A stretch of DNA of 64,000 nt from sequence record NC_048748.1, one strand, 5' to 3'. Positions 32,179 to 43,020 of this stretch are shown piece by piece. Under the pieces are notes generated by a model. It saw nothing but the letters and a program-made list of their open reading frames with translations. It ran no database searches and was not told the origin of the DNA. The translations under genes were made by a program, and so were the position numbers. Positions within the stretch are counted from its first letter, which is position 1, and each line of letters opens with the position of its first letter. Origin of the DNA: Escherichia phage vB_EcoS_HdH2.

Positions 32179-32367
32179 ATGAAAGTAACACTTCCAAAAA
32201 TTCAAGCAAAGCTAAATCTAGTATCGAATGCTAGAAATAACTATCTAGATAACTTTGGTGGAATCAACGATAAAGCGTACAAAGATGCGTGGTTGAAAGA
32301 AGCGCAAGAGTTAGCCGATCTCATTGCTCAGTATAATAAAGAACTACGGGTAGAAATGAATGACTAA
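32179..32367 (+). CDS. hypothetical protein (62 aa)
   Basis: Start at ATG (MKVTLPK) behind AGAGGA RBS. Confidence 0.45.
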   Translation: MKVTLPKIQAKLNLVSNARNNYLDNFGGINDKAYKDAWLKEAQELADLIAQYNKELRVEMND

Positions 32368-33331
32368 TGTAAAAGACTTTATTAAACGCTGTCAAGAAGC
32401 ATATTATCAAGGCATGTCTTTAATCTCTGATGAAGAATATGATCGCCTGGTAAAACGCTTCCCATTAGAAGAAGAGATTGGGCCTAAGGGTGATATTCCA
32501 CATCTGTACCGTATGTATTCTTTACAGAAAGTTTATTATAATCGTGGAGATAAACCTCCGTTTAACCCATTAGGTCAGGTAGAAACTGATAAGTTAGATG
32601 GTTGTGCGATTTCTCTGCTATATATTAATGGCGAATTTGTTCAAGCACTAACTCGTGGTAATGGTATTCTAGGAAATGATGTCACAAGCAACGTAAGATT
32701 GCTGAACATCCCCAAAAAGATTTCCCAAAAAGTACCTACTCAAATCACTGGTGAAGTTCTAATTACAAAAGAAGTAGAAAATAAACGTAACTTTGCCTCT
32801 GGTGCTATTAACCTCAAAGATAGCGATGATTTCGTACAACGTATCGGGGAAGGTGGTTTAATCTTCGTTGCATATGGTATCCAGTGTTCTGCTGAATCTG
32901 TAGGTATTACAGAAGCGTATTTAAAAGATATGCTTTGGCTGGAGAATGAGAACTTCTTAACAGTTGTTAATGTGCGTTCCTTCTTTAAATGGATTCCTAC
33001 TGATGGTAAAGTTGTTCGTATTAATGACAACAACAAATTCTTCCGAGAAGGCTGGACTAATAAATTCCCTCGTGGAGCATTCGCTATTAAAGAGGATGAA
33101 GAAGGCGAGATTACAACTCTTACTAAAGTTGAGTGGCAGGTAGGGGCTTCTGGTAAAGTAACTCCAGTTGGTTATTTCGAACCGGTAATTATTGATGATG
33201 CTACGATTGTTAAAGCGACTCTCAATAACGTTGATTATATTAACTCTCTCGATCTAGAGATCGGTTGCCAGATTCGAGTGATTCGTGCTGGTGGTGTAAT
33301 CCCGTGCATAGTAGAGCGAGTATACGATTAA
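32360..33331 (+). CDS. ligA: NAD-dependent DNA ligase, N-terminal adenylation/OB part (separate ORF)
   Basis: LigA-like Ia region and KxDG adenylation motif (TDKLDGCAISLLY); ends at a stop at 33331. Confidence 0.7.
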   Translation: MTNVKDFIKRCQEAYYQGMSLISDEEYDRLVKRFPLEEEIGPKGDIPHLYRMYSLQKVYYNRGDKPPFNPLGQVETDKLDGCAISLLYINGEFVQALTRGNGILGNDVTSNVRLLNIPKKISQKVPTQITGEVLITKEVENKRNFASGAINLKDSDDFVQRIGEGGLIFVAYGIQCSAESVGITEAYLKDMLWLENENFLTVVNVRSFFKWIPTDGKVVRINDNNKFFREGWTNKFPRGAFAIKEDEEGEITTLTKVEWQVGASGKVTPVGYFEPVIIDDATIVKATLNNVDYINSLDLEIGCQIRVIRAGGVIPCIVERVYD

Positions 33332-33410: not shown

Positions 33411-33533
33411 ATTATCATTCAGTTGAGGGATAGAAAGTTATGGCGAGGGTAAGCAAAGTTAATTAAAATTGTAGTTGCTAAATGCTTAAATACTTGCTAT
33501 AATATTTATATAAATTGATAAGGAAGAAATTTG

Positions 33534-34310
33534 ATGAAAATCGAAATTCCAACACAATGTCCCTCTTGTGGTTCTAAGCTAGATCTTGTCAACGGACAAT
33601 TATTCTGTCGTAATAAGTCCAACTGTCCAGCGCAATCAAGTAAGTTAATTGAGAACTTCTGTACAAAAATGAAGTTAAAGGGCTTTGGCCCGAAAACTAT
33701 TGAGAAGCTGGAGCTGACGAAGATTTCAGAACTATTTTACCTAACCGAAGAAGATTTGGTTAGAGCCGTGGGTAGCAAGGTTGCCGCTAAGTTAATTAGC
33801 GAATTAAATACTAAAGTTCGCGGAGACATTGACTTTGGTTCAGTTCTCGGTTCTTTAGGAATCCCTCTAATTGGAGAGGTTGCAGCAAAGAAATTATCCC
33901 AAAATTGCACTAGCTTTCAAGATGTGAGAGCTGACGGCAAGGCTGGAGAAAACTATAAAGCCTGGCTAAATTCCCCACAAGGCAAGGATGTTATCGAATT
34001 ACCGTGGAAATTCTCAAATGGTATTAAGGGTGCTAAAGCTGAGGTCATCACTGATGGTCTAGTAGCCCAACCAAACGGAATAACGGTATGTATTACCGGA
34101 TCTTTGCAAGATTTTGCAAATCGAACGGATGCAACAAACTATTTAGAAGGTCTAGGATATACGGTTAAGAAATCCGTTACTAAAGACGTCAAATACCTAA
34201 TCTGTGAGGATGAATCGAAGCGTTCTTCCTCATCTTATAAGAAAGCCGAAACGAATGGGATAGAAATCCTGTCGATTAAAGAACTATTGGAGAAAAATAA
34301 TAATGTCTAA
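33534..34310 (+). CDS. ligA: NAD-dependent DNA ligase, C-terminal Zn-finger/HhH/BRCT part (separate ORF)
   Basis: Zinc-finger cysteines CPSCGSKL...CRNKSNC, HhH-like region, BRCT-like C-terminus. Confidence 0.7.
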   Translation: MKIEIPTQCPSCGSKLDLVNGQLFCRNKSNCPAQSSKLIENFCTKMKLKGFGPKTIEKLELTKISELFYLTEEDLVRAVGSKVAAKLISELNTKVRGDIDFGSVLGSLGIPLIGEVAAKKLSQNCTSFQDVRADGKAGENYKAWLNSPQGKDVIELPWKFSNGIKGAKAEVITDGLVAQPNGITVCITGSLQDFANRTDATNYLEGLGYTVKKSVTKDVKYLICEDESKRSSSSYKKAETNGIEILSIKELLEKNNNV

Positions 34311-35085: not shown

Positions 35086-35120
35086 CTAAGGGGAGGGGGC
35101 TATGCTCCTTCCCCTTTTTG
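35086..35120 (+). terminator. rho-independent terminator
   Basis: Hairpin AAGGGGAGGG-loop-CCTTCCCCTT followed by TTTTG. Confidence 0.65.
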
Positions 35121-35152
35121 CATTTAGAAGGCACGAAAGCGTGCAAAGGAGA

Positions 35153-36625
35153 ATGACCTTGTTTAACGTGCAAGCTGTAGTGTTGAAGATGCTTCTAGCT
35201 TCCGAACAGAAGCAAATAGCATTGGAAACATTCTCAAAACTGCATAAAGATCATTTTAATGACGCTTTCTCCTCAATTTACCAAGCCGTCCAGAATTATT
35301 ATAAAAAATATAACACAATGCCGTCCATTGACGCACTTATGCTTGAAGCTAATAGGAACGCCCGCCTTTCTCAAGCTCTAGTCGTCTTAGCTAACACTCA
35401 AATTCCAGAAGTGAGCATGGAACAGGCACTTGAAGTCCTAGAAGCCGAATATACACAGGATTTATTCCTGAAGCTTCTAGAAACAGACGTGCTTCAAGAT
35501 TTAACAATGCTGGATCAGGGAGAAATTCTCAACCGAGTTGCCTCCCTTCACTTAAAATTAGAAGAGAAAGTAACGAATACTGGAAAAGTATTCAACGCAG
35601 ATAACATGCGTATTTTCCAGAGAGAAGAAGATACCAAACTGAACTTAATCGCTCTTGGTATTTGTAATGAGTTCGACGCTCAAATCGGTTTAGCTCGCAC
35701 AGAAACGTTACTGCTTGGTGGTTGGCGTGGTACTGGTAAATCCATTATCTGTTCAAACATACAGGTTCAGCAATATTTGAATGGGGATATTGCTCCATAC
35801 TTCTCAATTGAGATGAAAGAACATGAAGTATTTAGACGTAATCTAGCCATGTTAGCTGGTGTATCAGCATTAGCAATGCGTAATAATACTCTAGAAGGTG
35901 CACCTCTATTGAGATTAGCCAGAACTAGAGCTAGAATGTTTAATGGGGGTGAAGAGCTTTTCGACAACTTCGTTAAACAGTACACAATGGCTAAGATGAG
36001 TGATTTCTACGATATGGAAAGTAAGCTAATAGAAGGGTATGAGCTACATACTCCTATGATTATTGTTTATGATCCTGAGCTGTCTATTACAACAGTTGAC
36101 GTAGAATTAAATAAATTAGTTGCTAGATATGGGGATAAAGTTACAGTAGCTTTATTGGACTATATTAACCAAACCCGACTTCCAGATTCTAAAACCATTG
36201 ATATGTATGACTGGAAAGAACAGATGGTTGTTAGCTCGTCTTTCAAATCTATCTGTCAGAAACATAACGTGGCTGGTGTAGCTCCTTACCAGATCGATCA
36301 AGATGGTAGAACACGTATGTCAAAAGGGATTCTTGATTCCGCAGACATGGCTGCTAATCTTAATGCTGCAAAAGCTGATAATGGTCAAGGTGCTATTATG
36401 TTTGACTTCGTTAAGACCCGTTCTTCTGATAGCGTGAAGTTTATGCCTAAAATGAACTGGGAAACCCTGCGGATGGATAACACTACCAACCTAGCAATGG
36501 AAGATATATCTCAAATGGAAGCTGAGTTCGTTATCCCTATTGAGAAGGATAAGCCAGCTCAATCTAAACGTGCTAAGAAAGACAAAGCTGAAAATTCAAC
36601 AGGTGAACAGGCCAGCGATATATGA
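35153..36625 (+). CDS. P-loop replicative-helicase-like protein (DnaB/RecA-fold)
   Basis: Walker A GGWRGTGKS and Walker B-like IIVYDPE; start at ATG (MTLFNV) behind AAAGGAGA RBS, because the upstream ORF-track codons overlap the terminator. Confidence 0.5.
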   Translation: MTLFNVQAVVLKMLLASEQKQIALETFSKLHKDHFNDAFSSIYQAVQNYYKKYNTMPSIDALMLEANRNARLSQALVVLANTQIPEVSMEQALEVLEAEYTQDLFLKLLETDVLQDLTMLDQGEILNRVASLHLKLEEKVTNTGKVFNADNMRIFQREEDTKLNLIALGICNEFDAQIGLARTETLLLGGWRGTGKSIICSNIQVQQYLNGDIAPYFSIEMKEHEVFRRNLAMLAGVSALAMRNNTLEGAPLLRLARTRARMFNGGEELFDNFVKQYTMAKMSDFYDMESKLIEGYELHTPMIIVYDPELSITTVDVELNKLVARYGDKVTVALLDYINQTRLPDSKTIDMYDWKEQMVVSSSFKSICQKHNVAGVAPYQIDQDGRTRMSKGILDSADMAANLNAAKADNGQGAIMFDFVKTRSSDSVKFMPKMNWETLRMDNTTNLAMEDISQMEAEFVIPIEKDKPAQSKRAKKDKAENSTGEQASDI

Positions 36626-37155
36626 TAACACAGGAACGACTAAAAGAACTGTTTGACTACTCCCCAGAGACTGGGGAGTTTATTAGAAAAGTATCTAGAG
36701 GCAGCCAGAAAGCCGGGAGTATAGTAACTAGAAAGGATTCAAACGGTTATATAATTATCGGTATAGATGGTAGGGATTATAAAGCCCATCGTATGGCCTT
36801 CCTATTTATGGAAAACACGTTACCTGAAAAAGTAGACCATGTAAATAGAATACCCTTTGATAACCGATGGTGTAATCTAAGAGACGCCACAGCCCAGGAA
36901 AATAGTAGAAATAAAACCGCATGTAGTAAGTCTGGATATTTGGGAGTTGCTTGGGATATAGAAAAACAAAGATGGAGAGTTCAAGTAAGAGACTCTAATA
37001 GCACTCTTAAAAATGGTGGCAGATTTAAGTATGAAGAGCTAGAGCTAGCTGTAAATTCAGCAAATATATTAAGGGCTAAGTTACATGGAGAACGTGCTGT
37101 TATAGAAATTTTTGATACATCTAATTATCCTTCGCTGGAGGAGTTAAATTCATGA
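36622..37155 (+). mobile_element. HNH homing endonuclease with AP2-like DNA-binding domain
   Basis: HNH motif (AHRMAFL...VDHVNRIPFDNRWCNLR) and AP2-like segment YLGVAWDIEKQRWRVQV; AT-rich codon usage; inserted between helicase and primase. Confidence 0.65.
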
Positions 37156-38042
37156 GTAGAATAACAGAGTTACTTGATCTAAAAGGAATTGAGTACAAGG
37201 ATACAGGCGGGGATATTCTTATATGCTGTCTCAATCCAGATCATGACGATAAACACCCGAGTTTGCGTATTGACCCTGAAACAGGTATTATGCACTGCTT
37301 GAGTTGTGGCTTCGGTAAAGGTATACCGAGCATTTACCATTATTTTAATGAGACTCAGTACAGACAGTCCCCAAGGCTATCGCAAGTACGTAAAAAGATT
37401 TCAGAGATTAGGAATGGATCAACGAATCTTGCAATTCCTGAATCTGCTTACCTTTTCGAAGGTGATTTCCGAGGTATAAGTTCTAAGACCTTGAAGAAAT
37501 ATTTTGCTTTCCAACATCAAGCAGACTGGGAAGGCAGAATTGTATTCCCAATCACAGATGCTGTTGGACGCAATATCCTATTTTTGGGTCGTTCTATAAA
37601 CAGTTCTGCCCCTCCTAAATACTTAGTAAAACCAAAACAAGTTTCACCACCAATTTTTCCTGTACGATATAATACTCCAGTTCTTATTCTAGTTGAAGGC
37701 ATCTTTGATATGCTGAACCTAGAGGATAATGGTATAGACTATGCTTCTTGCTGCTTTGGTACACATCAGTTTACTTCGGATAACATTGCAGATAAGTTCA
37801 GTCCTTACATTATTGCCGGTGTAAAAGTTGTTGTTATCTTACTAGATAATGATGCTTCTGGTAATAAAGCTGCACAAGCACTGGCCAAGCTAATTCGTAC
37901 AAAAACGCGTTTAACACCTGTAGTTGCTAACTTTCTTCTGCCTGAAGGTAAGGACCCTGGTGACTTAAATAAAGAAGAGATTGATATGTTAGCAAAACGT
38001 ATTGAAATTTTAGTTGCTGAATCGCTTAAAGATTTGGTATAA
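37152..38042 (+). CDS. DNA primase (DnaG-like zinc finger plus Toprim)
   Basis: CHC2 zinc finger (CCLNPDHDDKHPSLRI...HCLSCG) and Toprim acidic motifs (LVEGIFDM, LLDNDASG). Confidence 0.7.
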   Translation: MSRITELLDLKGIEYKDTGGDILICCLNPDHDDKHPSLRIDPETGIMHCLSCGFGKGIPSIYHYFNETQYRQSPRLSQVRKKISEIRNGSTNLAIPESAYLFEGDFRGISSKTLKKYFAFQHQADWEGRIVFPITDAVGRNILFLGRSINSSAPPKYLVKPKQVSPPIFPVRYNTPVLILVEGIFDMLNLEDNGIDYASCCFGTHQFTSDNIADKFSPYIIAGVKVVVILLDNDASGNKAAQALAKLIRTKTRLTPVVANFLLPEGKDPGDLNKEEIDMLAKRIEILVAESLKDLV

Positions 38043-38104
38043 TATATTGGTAAGTTAGAGAAGAAACACTGAAGTTATACTTACTTACCAAGAGGAGATT
38101 AAAT

Positions 38105-40672
38105 TTGAAAATCGCAGTAGTTGATAAAGCTCTAAATAATACTCGTTATGATAAACATTTCCAGCTATACGGCGAGGAAGTTGATGTATTCCATATGTGT
38201 AACGAGAAGTTATCTGGTCGTTTGCTTAAAAAGCACATTACTATTGGAACACCAGAAAACCCATTTGATCCGAATGATTATGATTTTGTTATACTAGTAG
38301 GTGCTGAACCTTTCCTGTACTTTGCAGGTAAGAAAGGTATTGGTGATTATACCGGTAAACGTGTAGAGTATAATGGATATGCTAACTGGATTGCGAGTAT
38401 CAGCCCAGCCCAGTTACACTTTAAACCTGAAATGAAACCAGTTTTTGATGCAACAGTAGAGAATATCCACGATATTATCAATGGTCGTGAGAAGATTGCA
38501 AAAGCTGGTGATTACCGTCCTATTACTGACCCTGATGAGGCAGAAGAATATATCAAGATGGTGTATAATATGGTTATCGGACCTGTCGCATTCGACTCCG
38601 AAACCTCAGCACTATACTGTCGAGATGGTTATCTGCTTGGTGTTTCTATGTCTCACCAAGAGTATCAGGGTGTATATATCGATTCTGATTGTCTCACAGA
38701 GGTTGCAGTATATTATCTCCAGAAAATTCTAGATAGTGAAAACCACACTATTGTTTTTCACAACTTGAAGTTTGATATGCACTTTTATAAGTACCATCTG
38801 GGACTTACTTTTGATAAAGCACATAAAGAACGCAGGCTCCATGATACCATGTTGCAGCACTATGTTCTAGATGAACGTCGTGGTACTCATGGCTTGAAAT
38901 CTCTAGCAATGAAGTATACCGATATGGGTGACTACGACTTCGAACTAGATAAGTTCAAAGATGATTACTGCAAAGCACATAAAATCAAGAAAGAAGATTT
39001 CACCTATGATTTAATTCCATTTGATATTATGTGGCCGTATGCTGCGAAAGATACAGATGCTACCCTACGTTTACACAACTTCTTTTTACCAAAAATTGAG
39101 AAGAATGAAAAACTTTGCAGTCTGTATTACGATGTTCTAATGCCTGGTTGTGTATTCCTACAGCGTGTCGAAGATCGTGGAGTACCTATATCTATTGATC
39201 GTTTGAAAGAAGCTCAGTATCAGTTAACTCATAACCTGAATAAAGCCCGTGAGAAACTGTATACTTATCCAGAAGTTAAACAGCTAGAACAAGATCAGAA
39301 TGAAGCATTTAACCCGAATTCTGTTAAGCAACTTCGTGTTCTTCTGTTCGATTATGTTGGTTTGACTCCAACTGGTAAGTTAACGGATACTGGTGCAGAT
39401 TCTACAAACGCAGAAGCTCTGAATGAACTGGCTACGCAGCATCCGATTGCTAAAACTCTTCTAGAGATTCGTAAACTGACTAAGCTGATCTCTACTTATG
39501 TTGAGAAGATTCTACTGAGTATTGATGCAGATGGTTGCATTCGTACTGGTTTCCATGAACATATGACTACTTCTGGTCGTCTAAGTTCTTCTGGTAAACT
39601 GAACCTGCAACAGTTACCTCGTGATGAATCTATCATTAAGGGTTGTGTAGTTGCACCACCTGGATACCGTGTAATCGCATGGGACTTAACAACTGCGGAA
39701 GTTTATTATGCTGCTGTTCTATCTGGTGATAGAAATATGCAACAAGTATTTATCAACATGAGAAATGAACCTGATAAATACCCTGACTTCCACTCTAACA
39801 TCGCCCACATGGTATTTAAATTGCAATGTGAACCCCGTGATGTTAAAAAGTTGTTCCCAGCTCTGCGTCAGGCTGCTAAGGCAATTACCTTCGGTATTCT
39901 GTATGGCTCTGGCCCGGCTAAAGTAGCTCATTCTGTTAATGAAGCTCTTCTGGAACAGGCTGCTAAGACAGGAGAACCGTTTGTTGAATGTACTGTTGCG
40001 GATGCGAAGGACTATATCGAAACTTACTTCGGTCAGTTCCCACAGCTTAAGCGTTGGATTGATAAGTGCCACGATCAAATCAAGAATCATGGGTTTATCT
40101 ATAGTCACTTTGGTCGTAAACGTCGTCTGCATAATATCCATTCCGAAGACCGTGGCGTTCAGGGTGAAGAAATTCGTTCTGGATTTAACGCAATCATTCA
40201 GTCTGCTTCTTCTGATAGTCTCCTTTTAGGTGCTGTAGATGCAGATAATGAAATCATTTCTCTTGGTTTAGAACAAGAGATGAAGATTGTTATGCTGGTT
40301 CATGACTCCGTAGTTGCTATTGTTCGTGAGGATTTGATCGACCAATACAATGAAATCCTGATTCGTAATATTCAGAAAGACCGTGGTATCAGTATTCCTG
40401 GCTGTCCGATTGGTATTGATTCAGATTCTGAAGCTGGAGGTTCTCGTGACTATTCTTGTGGTAAGATGAAGAAACAGCACCCATCAATCGCTTGTATTGA
40501 TGATGATGAATATACTCGTTATGTCAAGGGTGTATTACTTGATGCAGATTTCGAGTATAAGAAATTAGCTGCAATGGATAAAGAGCATCCAGACCACAGC
40601 AAGTACAAGGATGATAAGTTTATTGCTGTATGCAAAGATCTGGATAACGTGAAAAGGATTCTCGGTGCTTAA
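38105..40672 (+). CDS. pol: family-A DNA polymerase with 3'-5' exonuclease domain (T5 polymerase-like, 855 aa)
   Basis: Exo motifs (FDSETS, YAAKD) and Pol A motifs (DLTTAEVY, RQAAKAITFGILYG, HDS); TTG start behind AAGAGGAG RBS; size and sequence match recalled T5 polymerase. Confidence 0.9.
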   Translation: MKIAVVDKALNNTRYDKHFQLYGEEVDVFHMCNEKLSGRLLKKHITIGTPENPFDPNDYDFVILVGAEPFLYFAGKKGIGDYTGKRVEYNGYANWIASISPAQLHFKPEMKPVFDATVENIHDIINGREKIAKAGDYRPITDPDEAEEYIKMVYNMVIGPVAFDSETSALYCRDGYLLGVSMSHQEYQGVYIDSDCLTEVAVYYLQKILDSENHTIVFHNLKFDMHFYKYHLGLTFDKAHKERRLHDTMLQHYVLDERRGTHGLKSLAMKYTDMGDYDFELDKFKDDYCKAHKIKKEDFTYDLIPFDIMWPYAAKDTDATLRLHNFFLPKIEKNEKLCSLYYDVLMPGCVFLQRVEDRGVPISIDRLKEAQYQLTHNLNKAREKLYTYPEVKQLEQDQNEAFNPNSVKQLRVLLFDYVGLTPTGKLTDTGADSTNAEALNELATQHPIAKTLLEIRKLTKLISTYVEKILLSIDADGCIRTGFHEHMTTSGRLSSSGKLNLQQLPRDESIIKGCVVAPPGYRVIAWDLTTAEVYYAAVLSGDRNMQQVFINMRNEPDKYPDFHSNIAHMVFKLQCEPRDVKKLFPALRQAAKAITFGILYGSGPAKVAHSVNEALLEQAAKTGEPFVECTVADAKDYIETYFGQFPQLKRWIDKCHDQIKNHGFIYSHFGRKRRLHNIHSEDRGVQGEEIRSGFNAIIQSASSDSLLLGAVDADNEIISLGLEQEMKIVMLVHDSVVAIVREDLIDQYNEILIRNIQKDRGISIPGCPIGIDSDSEAGGSRDYSCGKMKKQHPSIACIDDDEYTRYVKGVLLDADFEYKKLAAMDKEHPDHSKYKDDKFIAVCKDLDNVKRILGA

Positions 40673-41162
40673 TTTCAAATTGCCCGTCTATGCGTTACGG
40701 GCGTTTGTATCAATTGAGCAAGAAGGTGATTATTCCGTAATTACAACAAGATATAATAAATATGTGCTAGATAACAGGAAGTTGCCTGGCACGTTTTCTC
40801 AACGTAGGCTTATTCTATTTGAGAAACGGAAAGAATTACCATACAAGCTCTATCCTATTAGGGGTAGAATATCAATGTTGTCTCAATTAGTTGGGTCAAA
40901 GCGTAACCAATTTATAGATTCTGATGGAAATCTTATTAATTGGAAGAAAACTACGTTCTATGATGTTGTCACCTCTAAAGTTTTGCATTCAGCTAGAATT
41001 TATAATGGAAAATACCAATGCTATGTGGCTAAAGTCCCTTATCCGTTTGTATTATCCTATGTTCCAGCTTATATAAGCTATATTCTGGTAAATAATAGCC
41101 CTGTTATTTATCAAGTCCATCAAGAGGAGCCTGAAATTCCTAGACTTAGAATAAAATTATGA
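40665..41162 (+). CDS. hypothetical protein (165 aa), AT-rich codon usage
   Basis: ORF between polymerase and helicase with composition unlike its neighbours; possible inserted gene. Confidence 0.4.
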   Translation: MLNFKLPVYALRAFVSIEQEGDYSVITTRYNKYVLDNRKLPGTFSQRRLILFEKRKELPYKLYPIRGRISMLSQLVGSKRNQFIDSDGNLINWKKTTFYDVVTSKVLHSARIYNGKYQCYVAKVPYPFVLSYVPAYISYILVNNSPVIYQVHQEEPEIPRLRIKL

Positions 41163-42511
41163 AGGTTGTTATATCTAATAAAGCCTATTTCAAGCCCGAT
41201 GATGAACTTTGGGATTATTGTAGTAAGCAAACCACTTATCACATAGAGACAATGACTAGTAAATACCCTATTATGTATAAGAATAGTGGTGTTGTTGCCA
41301 AAGAGATTAAGTGGATTCCTATTACGCGTCTGGACTTACTAGATGCTAAAGGAGTAAAATACGAATTAGTCGATAAACGCACATTAGCTCCGGTAGATAT
41401 ACCAAAACCTAAGTTCAAACTGCGTGAAGAAGATCAGCTTCCAATATACGAAGAATGCGATGATACTTGTATTATTAATGGTAAGCCTGGATTTGGTAAA
41501 ACTATCCTAGCCCTTGCACTTGCGTATAAATTTGGCCAGAAAACTCTGGTAATTTGTACGAATACATCCATTCGTGAAATGTGGGCGGCAGAAGTTCGTA
41601 AATGGTTTGGGTTTGAACCAGGCATCATAGGTTCTGGGAAATACAATATCGATCCACCAATTGTAGTCAGTAATATTCAAACAGTGAATAAACATGCGAA
41701 TAATCTTTCTAAAGTATTCGGTACTGTTATAGTTGATGAAGTTCACCATTGTGTGGCTACAACTTTCACTAACTTCCTAGAAATATCATGTGCTCGCTAT
41801 AAAATTGGACTATCCGGTACACTAAAACGAAAAGATGGTTTGCAAGTTATGTTCAAAGATTTCTTTGGGTATAAAATCTTTAGTCCTCCAGTTAATAATA
41901 CTGTTGCTCCTACAATCCACAGGTACTCAGTACCAGTTGAATTGTCTGGAAACCAAAACGTACCGTGGGCATTACGTGCTAACGATGTGTATAATCATCC
42001 TGAATATCGAGAGACTATTATAAACCTAGCACATTTATATGTGAATATGGGACATAAAGTACTCATTGTAAGTGATAGAACAGAGTTAATCCAAACAGTA
42101 CTAGAAGCACTATCTCAGAGAGGAATCACAACCTATGAAATTATAGGAGCAACCCACTTAGATGACCGATTAAAAATTCAGGAAGATATAGCAAAAGGTG
42201 GGCCTTGTGTACTTGCAGCAGCTCAAAGTATCTTCTCTGAAGGTATTTCCCTTAATGAGCTGTCTTGTTTAATAATGGGAAGCCTCATTAATAATGAATC
42301 TCTCATTGAACAGCTTGCAGGCCGTGTTCAACGTATTGTCGAGGGCAAACTCGACCCTATTGTTGTAGATCTAATTATGAAAGGTGGTACTGGTCTAAGA
42401 CAGGCTTCTGGACGTATGGCAGTATATCGTAACAACGGGTGGAAAACTATTACCATGACTCCTGAGAAAGCAGTTCAATTAGCTAAAATTGCATTTGGCA
42501 ACAGCTCATAA
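41159..42511 (+). CDS. SF2 DExH-box helicase (T5 D10-like)
   Basis: Walker A GKPGFGKT, DExH VDEVHH, helicase C-terminal motifs (QLAGRVQR). Confidence 0.65.
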   Translation: MKVVISNKAYFKPDDELWDYCSKQTTYHIETMTSKYPIMYKNSGVVAKEIKWIPITRLDLLDAKGVKYELVDKRTLAPVDIPKPKFKLREEDQLPIYEECDDTCIINGKPGFGKTILALALAYKFGQKTLVICTNTSIREMWAAEVRKWFGFEPGIIGSGKYNIDPPIVVSNIQTVNKHANNLSKVFGTVIVDEVHHCVATTFTNFLEISCARYKIGLSGTLKRKDGLQVMFKDFFGYKIFSPPVNNTVAPTIHRYSVPVELSGNQNVPWALRANDVYNHPEYRETIINLAHLYVNMGHKVLIVSDRTELIQTVLEALSQRGITTYEIIGATHLDDRLKIQEDIAKGGPCVLAAAQSIFSEGISLNELSCLIMGSLINNESLIEQLAGRVQRIVEGKLDPIVVDLIMKGGTGLRQASGRMAVYRNNGWKTITMTPEKAVQLAKIAFGNSS

Positions 42512-42735: not shown

Positions 42736-43020
42736 ATGCTTACAGAGCCTGATGCTCACCAATTATTGGTCGGTTCCTCATTCATTTTAAATGAATCAAC
42801 AATAGTTAATAATCCAAATAAATTGTCTAATAGACAACTGGCAGAATATCTAGGAATTTTAAGTCTACGAAATTATGCCGAATACAAGTTTACAAACGAT
42901 CCTAGTTTGGACATGCAATATGTTCCAGTATGGATACCACGTTTAGTAATCGACACTAACCCACTAATCGCAATTAACAAATCGAAATTAATCTTTAAAG
43001 AGGAAATAAAATATGGCTAA
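42736..43020 (+). CDS. hypothetical protein (94 aa), weakly supported
   Basis: ORF overlapping the RBS of the next gene; weak RBS; AT-rich. Confidence 0.3.
   Translation: MLTEPDAHQLLVGSSFILNESTIVNNPNKLSNRQLAEYLGILSLRNYAEYKFTNDPSLDMQYVPVWIPRLVIDTNPLIAINKSKLIFKEEIKYG

What the first reader, a model, noticed from the sequence alone, without database searches (positions are those of the whole stretch)
36622..41162. HNH homing endonuclease inserted between helicase and primase, and a second AT-rich ORF between polymerase and helicase
ORF 36622-37155 has an HNH motif plus an AP2-type DNA-binding domain, the usual architecture of free-standing homing endonucleases, and overlaps both neighbours by 4 nt. 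ORF 40665-41162 shares the AT-rich codon usage and sits between the polymerase and the D10-like helicase without a recognisable domain. Both look like selfish insertions into the replication module and may be strain-specific.
Basis: partly seen in the sequence, partly recalled or inferred. Interest (0 to 1): 0.4.

Follow-up and report, generated by a model that had tools for sequence, protein, structure and literature searches.

The report
T5 homing endonuclease and core gene
The first ORF is the already annotated T5-type HNH homing endonuclease (hegJ / P-TflX), a mobile selfish gene found in about one in six T5-like phages; the second ORF is not a selfish insertion but a strongly conserved core gene that always sits next to the D10 helicase.

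Summary
The window is a T5-like (Tequintavirus) phage genome.

**ORF 36622-37155.** This is the ortholog of T5 hegJ ("putative H-N-H endonuclease P-TflX").
- It has an HNH_3 domain, and an AP2-type DNA-binding domain that is confirmed only at family-profile level.
- It is an exact 530-nt indel between the D6 helicase and the primase, bounded by ATGA at both ends.
- In the phage collection, 69 records carry it and 364 have the empty junction.
- Carriers are scattered among non-carriers in flank trees, and the gene is under purifying selection.
- All sampled carriers have 8 fixed synonymous changes in primase nt +19 to +69. This is the expected mark of a homing target and immunity tract. Cleavage itself was not tested.

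**ORF 40665-41162.**
- It is the ortholog of T5.123 and is present in about 900 Demerecviridae records.
- It lies immediately upstream of the D10-type helicase even in relatives of 24-29% identity.
- dN/dS is 0.07-0.13, and its GC3 is the same as its neighbours'.
- It is probably a non-catalytic partner of the helicase. That function is inferred.

The parts
36622..37155 (+). HNH-AP2 free-standing homing endonuclease gene (177 aa), ortholog of T5 hegJ / T5.120 'P-TflX'
   Evidence: The ORF is listed. Pfam HNH_3 and phrog_99 match. It is 92.7% nt identical to T5 at the same position and 99.3% to phiAPCEc03.
36626..37155 (+). The 530-nt inserted segment relative to HNH-less genomes. Empty site: ...GATATATGA|GTAGAATAAC. 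Filled site: ...GATATATGA|TAACACAGG...AAATTCATGA|GTAGAATAAC.
   Evidence: Junction comparison with AKFV33 and T5. A 50-nt empty-junction probe matches 364 records and a filled-junction probe matches 69.
36778..36909 (+). HNH_3 (His-Me finger) catalytic domain, aa 53-96, with D72-H73, N81, N85, N94 and N97
   Evidence: Pfam stretch 53-96. H73 is invariant, and D72, N81, N85, N94 and N97 are at least 90% conserved in 54 relatives. The family profile aligns to I-HmuI 1u3e.
36934..37101 (+). AP2-type DNA-binding domain (about aa 105-160)
   Evidence: Pfam AP2 is below threshold on this protein (aa 105-137, E 0.055). The family profile matches solved AP2/ERF domains over positions 103-161. Relatives carry PF00847.
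37137..37143 (+). GGAGGAG Shine-Dalgarno inside the 3' end of the HNH gene, 8 nt before the primase ATG. The insertion brings its own ribosome-binding site for the primase and keeps the ATGA coupling.
   Evidence: Read directly from the sequence. That it functions as a ribosome-binding site is inferred.
37170..37220 (+). Carrier-specific tract in the primase 5' end (nt +19 to +69 of primase): the inferred target or immunity region of the endonuclease
   Evidence: There are 8 positions, all synonymous, at which 9 HNH+ and 8 HNH- genomes share no nucleotide. A tree of primase nt 1-120 splits by HNH presence rather than by genus. The HNH-less 60-mer is at least 95% identical in 356 records. Cleavage was not tested.
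35102..36625 (+). D6 DnaB-like replicative helicase, the left neighbour; its 3' flank does not differ between carriers and non-carriers
37152..38042 (+). DnaG-type primase (CHC2 zinc finger plus Toprim), the right neighbour
40665..41162 (+). ORF2: conserved 165-aa core gene, ortholog of T5.123 (phrog_4386). GTG start with AAGGA 8-9 nt upstream. Not an insertion.
41159..42511 (+). D10 (UvsW/XPB-like SF2) helicase, translationally coupled to ORF2 (ATGA overlap) and its constant neighbour
   Evidence: D10 branch-migration activity is reported in PMC5180179.

Best explanation
**(A) ORF 36622-37155.** This is the T5 hegJ (P-TflX) ortholog, a free-standing homing endonuclease gene. Its protein joins a His-Me finger (HNH_3) nuclease to an AP2-type sequence-reading domain.
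- It sits as a precise 530-nt cassette between the helicase stop and the primase start. It is translated by coupling within the early replication operon and supplies a Shine-Dalgarno sequence for the primase.
- Inferred mechanism: in a mixed infection with an HNH-less T5-like phage, it nicks or cuts the recipient DNA in the first ~70 nt of the primase gene. Recombinational repair from the carrier genome then copies the cassette together with the adjacent primase 5' tract. The synonymous changes in that tract make carriers resistant.

**(B) ORF 40665-41162.** This is not mobile. It is a core Demerecviridae gene (T5.123 family), co-translated with and evolutionarily locked to the D10 branch-migration helicase.
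- Its fold partly resembles the nucleotidyltransferase domain of DNA ligases but lacks the catalytic lysine.
- It most likely acts as a non-catalytic DNA-end, nick or nucleotide-binding accessory of D10. This last step is inferred, with low confidence.
For: **(A) HNH gene**
- Domains.
- Orthology with T5 hegJ at the same site.
- Exact indel with ATGA at both ends.
- 69 filled against 364 empty junctions.
- Carriers are interleaved with non-carriers in helicase and primase-3' trees, but primase nt 1-120 splits by HNH presence across two genera.
- 8 fixed synonymous differences at +19 to +69. Carrier versus non-carrier divergence is 0.07-0.17 there, against about 0.03 on the helicase side.
- The gene is under purifying selection (dN/dS 0.03 against T5). 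Its dS against T5 is 0.39, whereas ORF2 of the same two genomes has dS 0.009, so it has a separate history from the backbone.
- At least three allele classes of about 70% nt identity occupy the same site, with conserved termini and mosaic members.
- The literature says homing endonuclease genes are the main source of differences among T5-like genomes (PMC10644984).

**(B) ORF2**
- Conservation and synteny.
- 227 clusters at 50% identity, all about 160-170 aa.
- dN/dS 0.07-0.13 with a conserved GTG start.
- Model pLDDT 93.8.
- Foldseek against BFVD also gives weak ligase hits after the family members.
- No lysine column exceeds 59% in 87 relatives. The conserved residues are P7, R12, D36, R47, R48, Y63, D85 and G88.
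Against: **(A)**
- No endonuclease activity, cleavage site or biased inheritance has been measured for P-TflX. The 'P' in the name means putative.
- The carrier-specific primase tract could be only a co-conversion or hitch-hiking tract rather than the recognition site itself.
- The per-genome association was checked directly in only 17-18 genomes. The collection-wide counts agree with it but are not matched record by record.

**(B)**
- No sequence-profile link to ligases was found.
- No interaction with D10 has been shown.
Confidence: 0.8

Rival explanations
1. One reading: both ORFs are selfish, strain-specific, AT-rich insertions into the replication module.
For: Both ORFs are small, tightly packed between replication genes and lack a known replication function. 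ORF2 has no Pfam domain and its overall GC is 0.345.
Against: ORF2 is present in 435 of 449 T5-like records and in 904 Demerecviridae records. It is syntenic with the D10 helicase at 24-29% identity. Its dN/dS is 0.07-0.13 and its GC3 equals that of its neighbours.
Confidence: 0.02
2. The HNH protein is domesticated. It performs a phage function, for example making the site-specific nicks of T5 virion DNA or helping packaging, rather than homing.
For: Strong purifying selection (dN/dS 0.03). [quoted passage not shown] 2004, cited in PMC10644984); that they nick is stated in the Gostya9 record's label and from my own knowledge, not in a paper I read. The gene sits in an early replication operon.
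Against: About 84% of T5-like records lack the gene. BF23 lacks it yet carries the same kind of nicks (PMC10644984). Carriers and non-carriers are otherwise near-identical in the flanks.
Confidence: 0.06
3. The HNH gene is an inactive, decaying remnant that persists only by linkage.
For: Homing endonuclease genes commonly degenerate after fixation. One T5 record (AY587007) shows two 1-nt deletions that truncate the ORF.
Against: In the window the ORF is full length with all conserved HNH residues. dN/dS is 0.03 at dS 0.39. The AY587007 deletions lie in A-runs and are absent from NC_005859, so they are probably sequencing errors.
Confidence: 0.07
4. ORF2 is an active covalent nucleotidyltransferase: a minimal ligase, or a capping-like or adenylyl-transferase enzyme.
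Against: The family has no conserved lysine (best column 59%) and no KxDG motif. No Pfam ligase or capping family matches any of 87 members. hhalign against the window's own LigA gives probability 1%. At 165 aa the protein is shorter than a complete nucleotidyltransferase plus OB enzyme.
Confidence: 0.05
5. ORF2 works with the DNA polymerase, for example as a processivity or scaffold factor like the ligase-like domain of poxvirus A20/A22, rather than with D10.
Against: In a distant relative a dNMP-kinase-like gene separates pol from ORF2, while the 4-nt overlap with the helicase is kept (L018). In L019 the helicase also follows directly.
Confidence: 0.15

Closest known systems
T5 hegJ / T5.120 'putative H-N-H endonuclease P-TflX' (NC_005859 69614-70147)
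   Same: Same position between the D6 helicase and the primase, same length (177 aa), same ATGA junctions. Identity is 92.7% nt, with only a few amino-acid differences.
   Different: Synonymous divergence is high (dS 0.39) although the backbone is near-identical. The window's first 60 nt match allele class C (T5_ev219) rather than T5. The adjacent primase tract is a different carrier haplotype, shared with phiAPCEc03.
T5 site-specific HNH endonucleases F-TflI, F-TflII, F-TflIV (Akulenko et al. 2004, cited in PMC10644984 and PMC3326045)
   Same: Free-standing HNH endonuclease genes of the same phage group. They are the experimentally characterised members of the family.
   Different: They lie in the tRNA gene region, not in the replication module (PMC3326045). 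No close paralog of the window's HNH occurs elsewhere in the window. The activity of P-TflX itself has not been shown.
I-HmuI (PDB 1u3e), the HNH homing endonuclease of Bacillus phage SPO1
   Same: The family profile aligns over the HNH core, positions 32-118, at E 2e-7.
   Different: I-HmuI is intron-encoded, and from my own knowledge its DNA-binding module is not an AP2 domain. The single sequence alone does not hit it.
Free-standing homing endonucleases of T-even phages (mobE between nrdA and nrdB; Seg proteins such as SegB, PMC2330249)
   Same: An intergenic cassette between conserved essential genes, presence/absence among relatives, and a target in a neighbouring conserved gene with co-conversion of flanks. 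This is established knowledge; mobE is discussed in PMC3326045.
   Different: A different phage family. The Seg proteins are GIY-YIG enzymes. Here the cassette is fully translationally coupled on both sides and no promoter of its own was found.
HNH-AP2 endonucleases, the bacterial and phage relatives of the plant AP2/ERF DNA-binding domain
   Same: HNH followed by an AP2-like domain. The profile matches WRI1, TEM1, ERF096 and AtERF1 structures.
   Different: The window protein alone is below Pfam's AP2 threshold.
T5.123 / phrog_4386 family of hypothetical proteins (for ORF2)
   Same: Full-length match at E 5e-84, 98.8% aa identity to T5, same position.
   Different: Nothing. It is the same gene. 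No function is recorded and no paper was found.
Nucleotidyltransferase (adenylation) domain of ATP-dependent DNA ligases (e.g. PDB 4d05, 2q2t), and non-catalytic derivatives of that fold (snurportin-1 1xk5)
   Different: No conserved catalytic lysine or KxDG motif, no sequence-profile signal, and the protein is only 165 aa and stands alone.

Membership tests
HNH / His-Me finger endonuclease (Pfam HNH_3, PF13392) | Profile match above the curated threshold | tested here: met
   32.6 bits against a cut-off of 24.8, E 6e-8, aa 53-96. phrog_99 E 6e-58.
HNH / His-Me finger endonuclease (Pfam HNH_3, PF13392) | Catalytic His and metal-binding Asn residues present | tested here: met
   H73 is invariant. 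D72, N81, N85, N94 and N97 are at least 90% conserved in 54 relatives and all are present in the window protein. The profile aligns with the I-HmuI core.
HNH / His-Me finger endonuclease (Pfam HNH_3, PF13392) | Metal-dependent DNA nicking or cleavage | not testable with these tools
   Needs purified protein.
AP2 DNA-binding domain (PF00847) | Profile match above the curated threshold on this protein | tested here: not met
   14.2 bits against a cut-off of 33.3, E 0.055.
AP2 DNA-binding domain (PF00847) | Family-level homology to bona fide AP2 domains | tested here: met
   A profile of 54 relatives hits WRI1 (5e-11), TEM1 (3e-6), ERF096 (0.004) and AtERF1 (0.012) over positions 103-161. About 40 of 117 relatives have a precomputed PF00847 hit.
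Free-standing homing endonuclease gene | Presence/absence polymorphism at one locus with precise boundaries | tested here: met
   530-nt indel bounded by ATGA. 69 filled against 364 empty junctions.
Free-standing homing endonuclease gene | Distribution and history incongruent with the host genome backbone | tested here: met
   Carriers are interleaved with non-carriers in flank trees. HNH dS is 0.39 against ORF2 dS 0.009 for the same genome pair. Several allele classes and mosaics share the site.
Free-standing homing endonuclease gene | Target site in the HEG-less allele, altered in carriers | tested here: inconclusive
   There are 8 fixed synonymous differences at primase +19 to +69 and the tree splits by HNH status. 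This is compatible with a target or immunity tract or with a co-conversion tract. The cleavage site is unknown.
Free-standing homing endonuclease gene | Preferential inheritance in mixed infection that depends on the nuclease | not testable with these tools
   Needs phage crosses.
Ortholog of T5 hegJ (P-TflX) | Same locus and high identity | tested here: met
   92.7% nt identity, between D6 and pri.
T5.123 / phrog_4386 family (ORF2) | Full-length profile match and conserved position upstream of the D10-type helicase | tested here: met
   E 5e-84 over 1-165 of 165. Synteny.
Covalent nucleotidyltransferase superfamily (DNA/RNA ligases, capping enzymes), considered for ORF2 | Nucleotidyltransferase fold | tested here: inconclusive
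Covalent nucleotidyltransferase superfamily (DNA/RNA ligases, capping enzymes), considered for ORF2 | Motif I KxDG with an invariant catalytic lysine | tested here: not met
   No lysine column exceeds 59% in 87 relatives. No KxDG motif is present in the sequence.
Covalent nucleotidyltransferase superfamily (DNA/RNA ligases, capping enzymes), considered for ORF2 | Sequence-profile match to ligase or capping families | tested here: not met
   No Pfam hit for any of 87 members. PDB profile search found nothing. hhalign against LigA gives probability 1%.
   Present in 435 of 449 records by DNA and in 904 records by tblastn. GC3 is 0.289 against 0.273-0.287 in its neighbours.

The most novel reading that the evidence does not exclude
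The ORF2 / T5.123 family (227 clusters at 50% identity, found across Demerecviridae and in metagenomic relatives) is a lysine-less derivative of the ligase nucleotidyltransferase fold. It serves as an obligatory DNA-nick, DNA-end or nucleotide-sensing partner of the D10 (UvsW/XPB-like) branch-migration helicase. It may link helicase action to the nicked genomes typical of T5-like phages.

Separately, the 51-nt primase tract 37170-37220 marks the still unmapped target of P-TflX.
Probability: 0.25. Interest if true: 0.5.

Novelty: already known. Interest (0 to 1): 0.25.

Why it matters
For the finding as given, not much. It re-discovers an annotated T5 homing endonuclease gene, and homing endonuclease genes are already recognised as the main source of differences among T5-like genomes.

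Two by-products are useful:
- **A testable target prediction for P-TflX.** Primase nt +19 to +69 is conserved in HNH-less phages of two genera and synonymously recoded in every carrier sampled. This would allow a first functional test of this putative enzyme and of marker exclusion in T5 crosses.
- **A lead on T5.123.** This uncharacterised core gene is shown to be locked to the D10 helicase over deep divergence and to have a ligase-like but lysine-less fold. That gives a starting point for an unstudied component of T5 replication and recombination.

Tried and rejected
**Searches that returned nothing**
- Single-sequence PDB searches gave nothing for ORF2, nor did the 87-sequence profile. The HNH single sequence gave nothing meaningful.
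- The search for related loci on IMG/VR failed with the ORF2 alignment because no stretch was conserved enough. Three distant members used singly found no relatives. I obtained context from tblastn on the phage collection and from the look-up of encoding contigs instead.
- The afdb50 fold library was unavailable, so I used BFVD.
- A Pfam scan of all 87 ORF2 relatives found no recurrent family.
- hhalign of the ORF2 family against the window's own NAD-ligase adenylation subunit was not significant. It gave probability 1%, aligning FIDSDG with the ligase 'IPTDGKVV' segment.
- Literature searches for F-TflVIII, T5.123 / YP_006951 and 'heterodimeric DNA ligase' found nothing.

**Ideas rejected**
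- The Gostya9 label 'F-TflVIII' for this gene was copied from a paralog (note DT57C_000073). P-TflVIII is the nrdA-nrdB endonuclease (PMC3326045), so I did not adopt that name.
- hegJ as the virion-DNA nickase: BF23 lacks the gene.
- The HNH or ORF2 having its own promoter: no strong sigma-70-like site lies just upstream of either.
Full report
**Identity of the window.** The region 25000-49000 is about 96% identical to phage T5 and its relatives. The gene order is ligA, ligB, D5, D6 helicase, HNH, primase, pol, ORF2, D10 helicase, T5.125, D11, D12, D13. So the window is a Tequintavirus (Demerecviridae) genome that is not identical to any record in the collection.

**Observation check.** Both ORFs exist as described.
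- ORF 36622-37155 overlaps the helicase stop and the primase start by ATGA on each side.
- It matches Pfam HNH_3 above threshold (E 6e-8) and phrog_99 (E 6e-58).
- The AP2 call is below Pfam's threshold on this single protein (14.2 against 33.3 bits). A profile of 54 relatives matches solved plant AP2/ERF domains (WRI1 5e-11, TEM1 3e-6, AtERF1 0.012) over positions 103-161. The same profile matches the I-HmuI HNH core over 32-118 (2e-7). Many relatives have precomputed PF00847 hits. The HNH + AP2 architecture is therefore real.
- The 'shared AT-rich codon usage' is not distinctive. GC3 is 0.281 and 0.289 for the two ORFs, against 0.273-0.287 for primase, D10 and ligA. ORF2's lower total GC comes from codon positions 1 and 2.

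**The HNH gene is the known T5 hegJ.** T5 RefSeq annotates the same 534-nt gene at the same place as hegJ/T5.120, 'putative H-N-H-endonuclease P-TflX'. Identity to the window is 92.7% nt, and the proteins differ at a handful of residues. Another T5 record (AY587007) shows it truncated because of two 1-nt deletions in A-runs. Gostya9 labels it 'F-TflVIII' by transfer from a paralog. P-TflVIII is actually the nrdA-nrdB endonuclease (PMC3326045).

**It behaves as a mobile cassette.**
- HNH-less genomes such as AKFV33 and BF23 read ...GATATATGA|GTAGAATAAC, so the helicase stop overlaps the primase start. Carriers have exactly 530 extra nt that end in a second ATGA.
- A 50-nt empty-junction probe matches 364 phage records. 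A 50-nt helicase-HNH junction probe matches 69. About 16% of T5-like records therefore carry a gene here.
- Carriers fall into at least three allele classes of about 70% nt identity: A (T5, window), B (MM-2, MET_P1) and C (T5_ev219). Sen_I1 is a B/C mosaic.
- All classes share nearly identical first ~90 nt and last ~30 nt. The window's first 60 nt are identical to class C rather than to T5.
- The 3' end of the cassette contains GGAGGAG 8 nt before the primase ATG, so the primase stays translationally coupled. No strong promoter precedes the gene.

**Evidence for homing.** I compared 9 carriers with 8-9 non-carriers from two genera (Tequintavirus and Epseptimavirus).
- The last 800 nt of the helicase do not distinguish carriers from non-carriers. 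Divergence is about 0.03 both within the groups and between them.
- In primase nt -20 to +100, carriers differ from same-genus non-carriers by 0.07-0.17, while non-carriers of the two genera are almost identical (0.008-0.033).
- Eight positions (+19, 30, 36, 42, 51, 63, 66, 69; window 37170-37220) share no nucleotide between the two sets. All are synonymous.
- Neighbour-joining trees of the helicase 3' end and of primase nt 401-891 interleave carriers and non-carriers and split by genus. The tree of primase nt 1-120 splits by HNH status instead.
- Collection-wide, the non-carrier 60-mer is at least 95% identical in 356 records and under 90% in 92, with only 3 between. This agrees with the 364 empty junctions.
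- The gene is under purifying selection (dN/dS 0.03 against T5). Its dS against T5 is 0.39, while ORF2 of the same two genomes has dS 0.009. The cassette has therefore had a different history from the backbone.

Together this is the classical signature of a free-standing homing endonuclease whose target lies in the adjacent conserved gene and whose carriers are recoded. Cleavage, strand specificity and biased inheritance remain untested.

**It is not the genome nickase.** BF23 lacks the gene but has the T5-type nicks (PMC10644984).

**ORF2 is a core gene.**
- ORF 40665-41162 is T5.123, listed as 'hypothetical protein' or 'D10 5' region', and matches phrog_4386 at E 5e-84.
- DNA search covers it in 435 of 449 T5-like records.
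- tblastn finds it in 904 records: Escherichia, Salmonella, Klebsiella, Pectobacterium, Proteus, Aeromonas and Vibrio T5-like phages, down to 30% identity, always beside pol and/or the D10-type helicase.
- An exhaustive profile search finds 227 clusters at 50% identity, nearly all 155-180 aa.
- In two metagenomic relatives of 24-29% identity the gene lies directly upstream of the ResIII/DEAD helicase. In one of them a dNMP-kinase-like gene separates it from pol. The constant partner is therefore the helicase.
- dN/dS is 0.07-0.13 and the GTG start with an upstream AAGGA is conserved.

**What ORF2 may be.**
- No Pfam, PDB-sequence or profile match exists.
- With an 87-sequence alignment AlphaFold2 gives pLDDT 93.8 and pTM 0.77.
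- A shallower first model gave the same list. Foldseek on BFVD gave weak ligase hits after the family members.
- The family has no conserved lysine (maximum 59%) and no KxDG motif. The conserved residues are P7, R12, D36, R47, R48, Y63, D85 and G88.
- I therefore do not file it as a ligase-family member.
- The best reading is a non-catalytic, ligase-like binding module that works with D10, a UvsW-like branch-migration helicase (PMC5180179). This functional step is inference.

**Novelty and score.** The HNH part is already known and ordinary for T5-like phages. The predicted P-TflX target tract and the ligase-like, helicase-linked nature of T5.123 are modest new leads. Interest 0.25.

Noticed in passing
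window 35088-35116 (and the ORF start at 35102): A strong terminator-like hairpin (13-bp stem, 8 GC pairs, T-run) lies between D5 and the D6 helicase and overlaps the first ATG of the helicase ORF. The real helicase start is probably the downstream Met (MTLFNVQ..., about 35153). Records disagree on the gene's length: 1467, 1509 or 1524 nt.
   Followed up: partly
window 32360-33331 and 33531-34310: The NAD-dependent DNA ligase is split into two ORFs (adenylation part and C-terminal part) with a ~200-nt spacer, as in T5 ligA/ligB, where promoters are annotated in the spacer. A 2026 PDB entry (9hu3) describes a heterodimeric phage ligase bound to a 'phage nick sequence'.
   Followed up: no
window 38043-38104 (primase-pol spacer); L005 2570-2899, L006 2040-2369, L020 3511-3840: A second variable cassette in this module: a 330-nt ORF (109 aa, hypothetical) sits between primase and pol in BB1, MM-2, slur09 and BF23. 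It is absent from the window and from T5. Its presence is independent of the HNH gene.
   Followed up: partly
L001 5624-6155 (T5 AY587007) against L002 3615-4148 (T5 NC_005859): Two single-A deletions in homopolymer runs make hegJ appear truncated (ORF111, 225 nt) in one T5 record. This is probably a sequencing error rather than decay.
   Followed up: yes
window 37152-37670 (first ~520 nt of primase): Among HNH-less genomes, Tequintavirus and Epseptimavirus differ by only 0.01-0.07 here, against 0.09-0.20 in the helicase and the primase 3' part. The cause is unexplained; it could be nucleotide-level constraint or recent exchange between genera.
   Followed up: no
window 36622-36711 against L007 1123-1212: The HNH alleles are mosaic. 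The window's first 60 nt are identical to the ~68%-identical allele of T5_ev219 but only 83-90% identical to T5, whose allele is otherwise 93% identical. This suggests recombination between allele classes inside the gene.
   Followed up: partly
window 42736-43020: The small ORF T5.125 (94 aa, phrog_4258, GC 0.326) downstream of D10, called 'D10 3' region' in one T5 record, is another conserved hypothetical gene of this module. It overlaps the D11 start.
   Followed up: no
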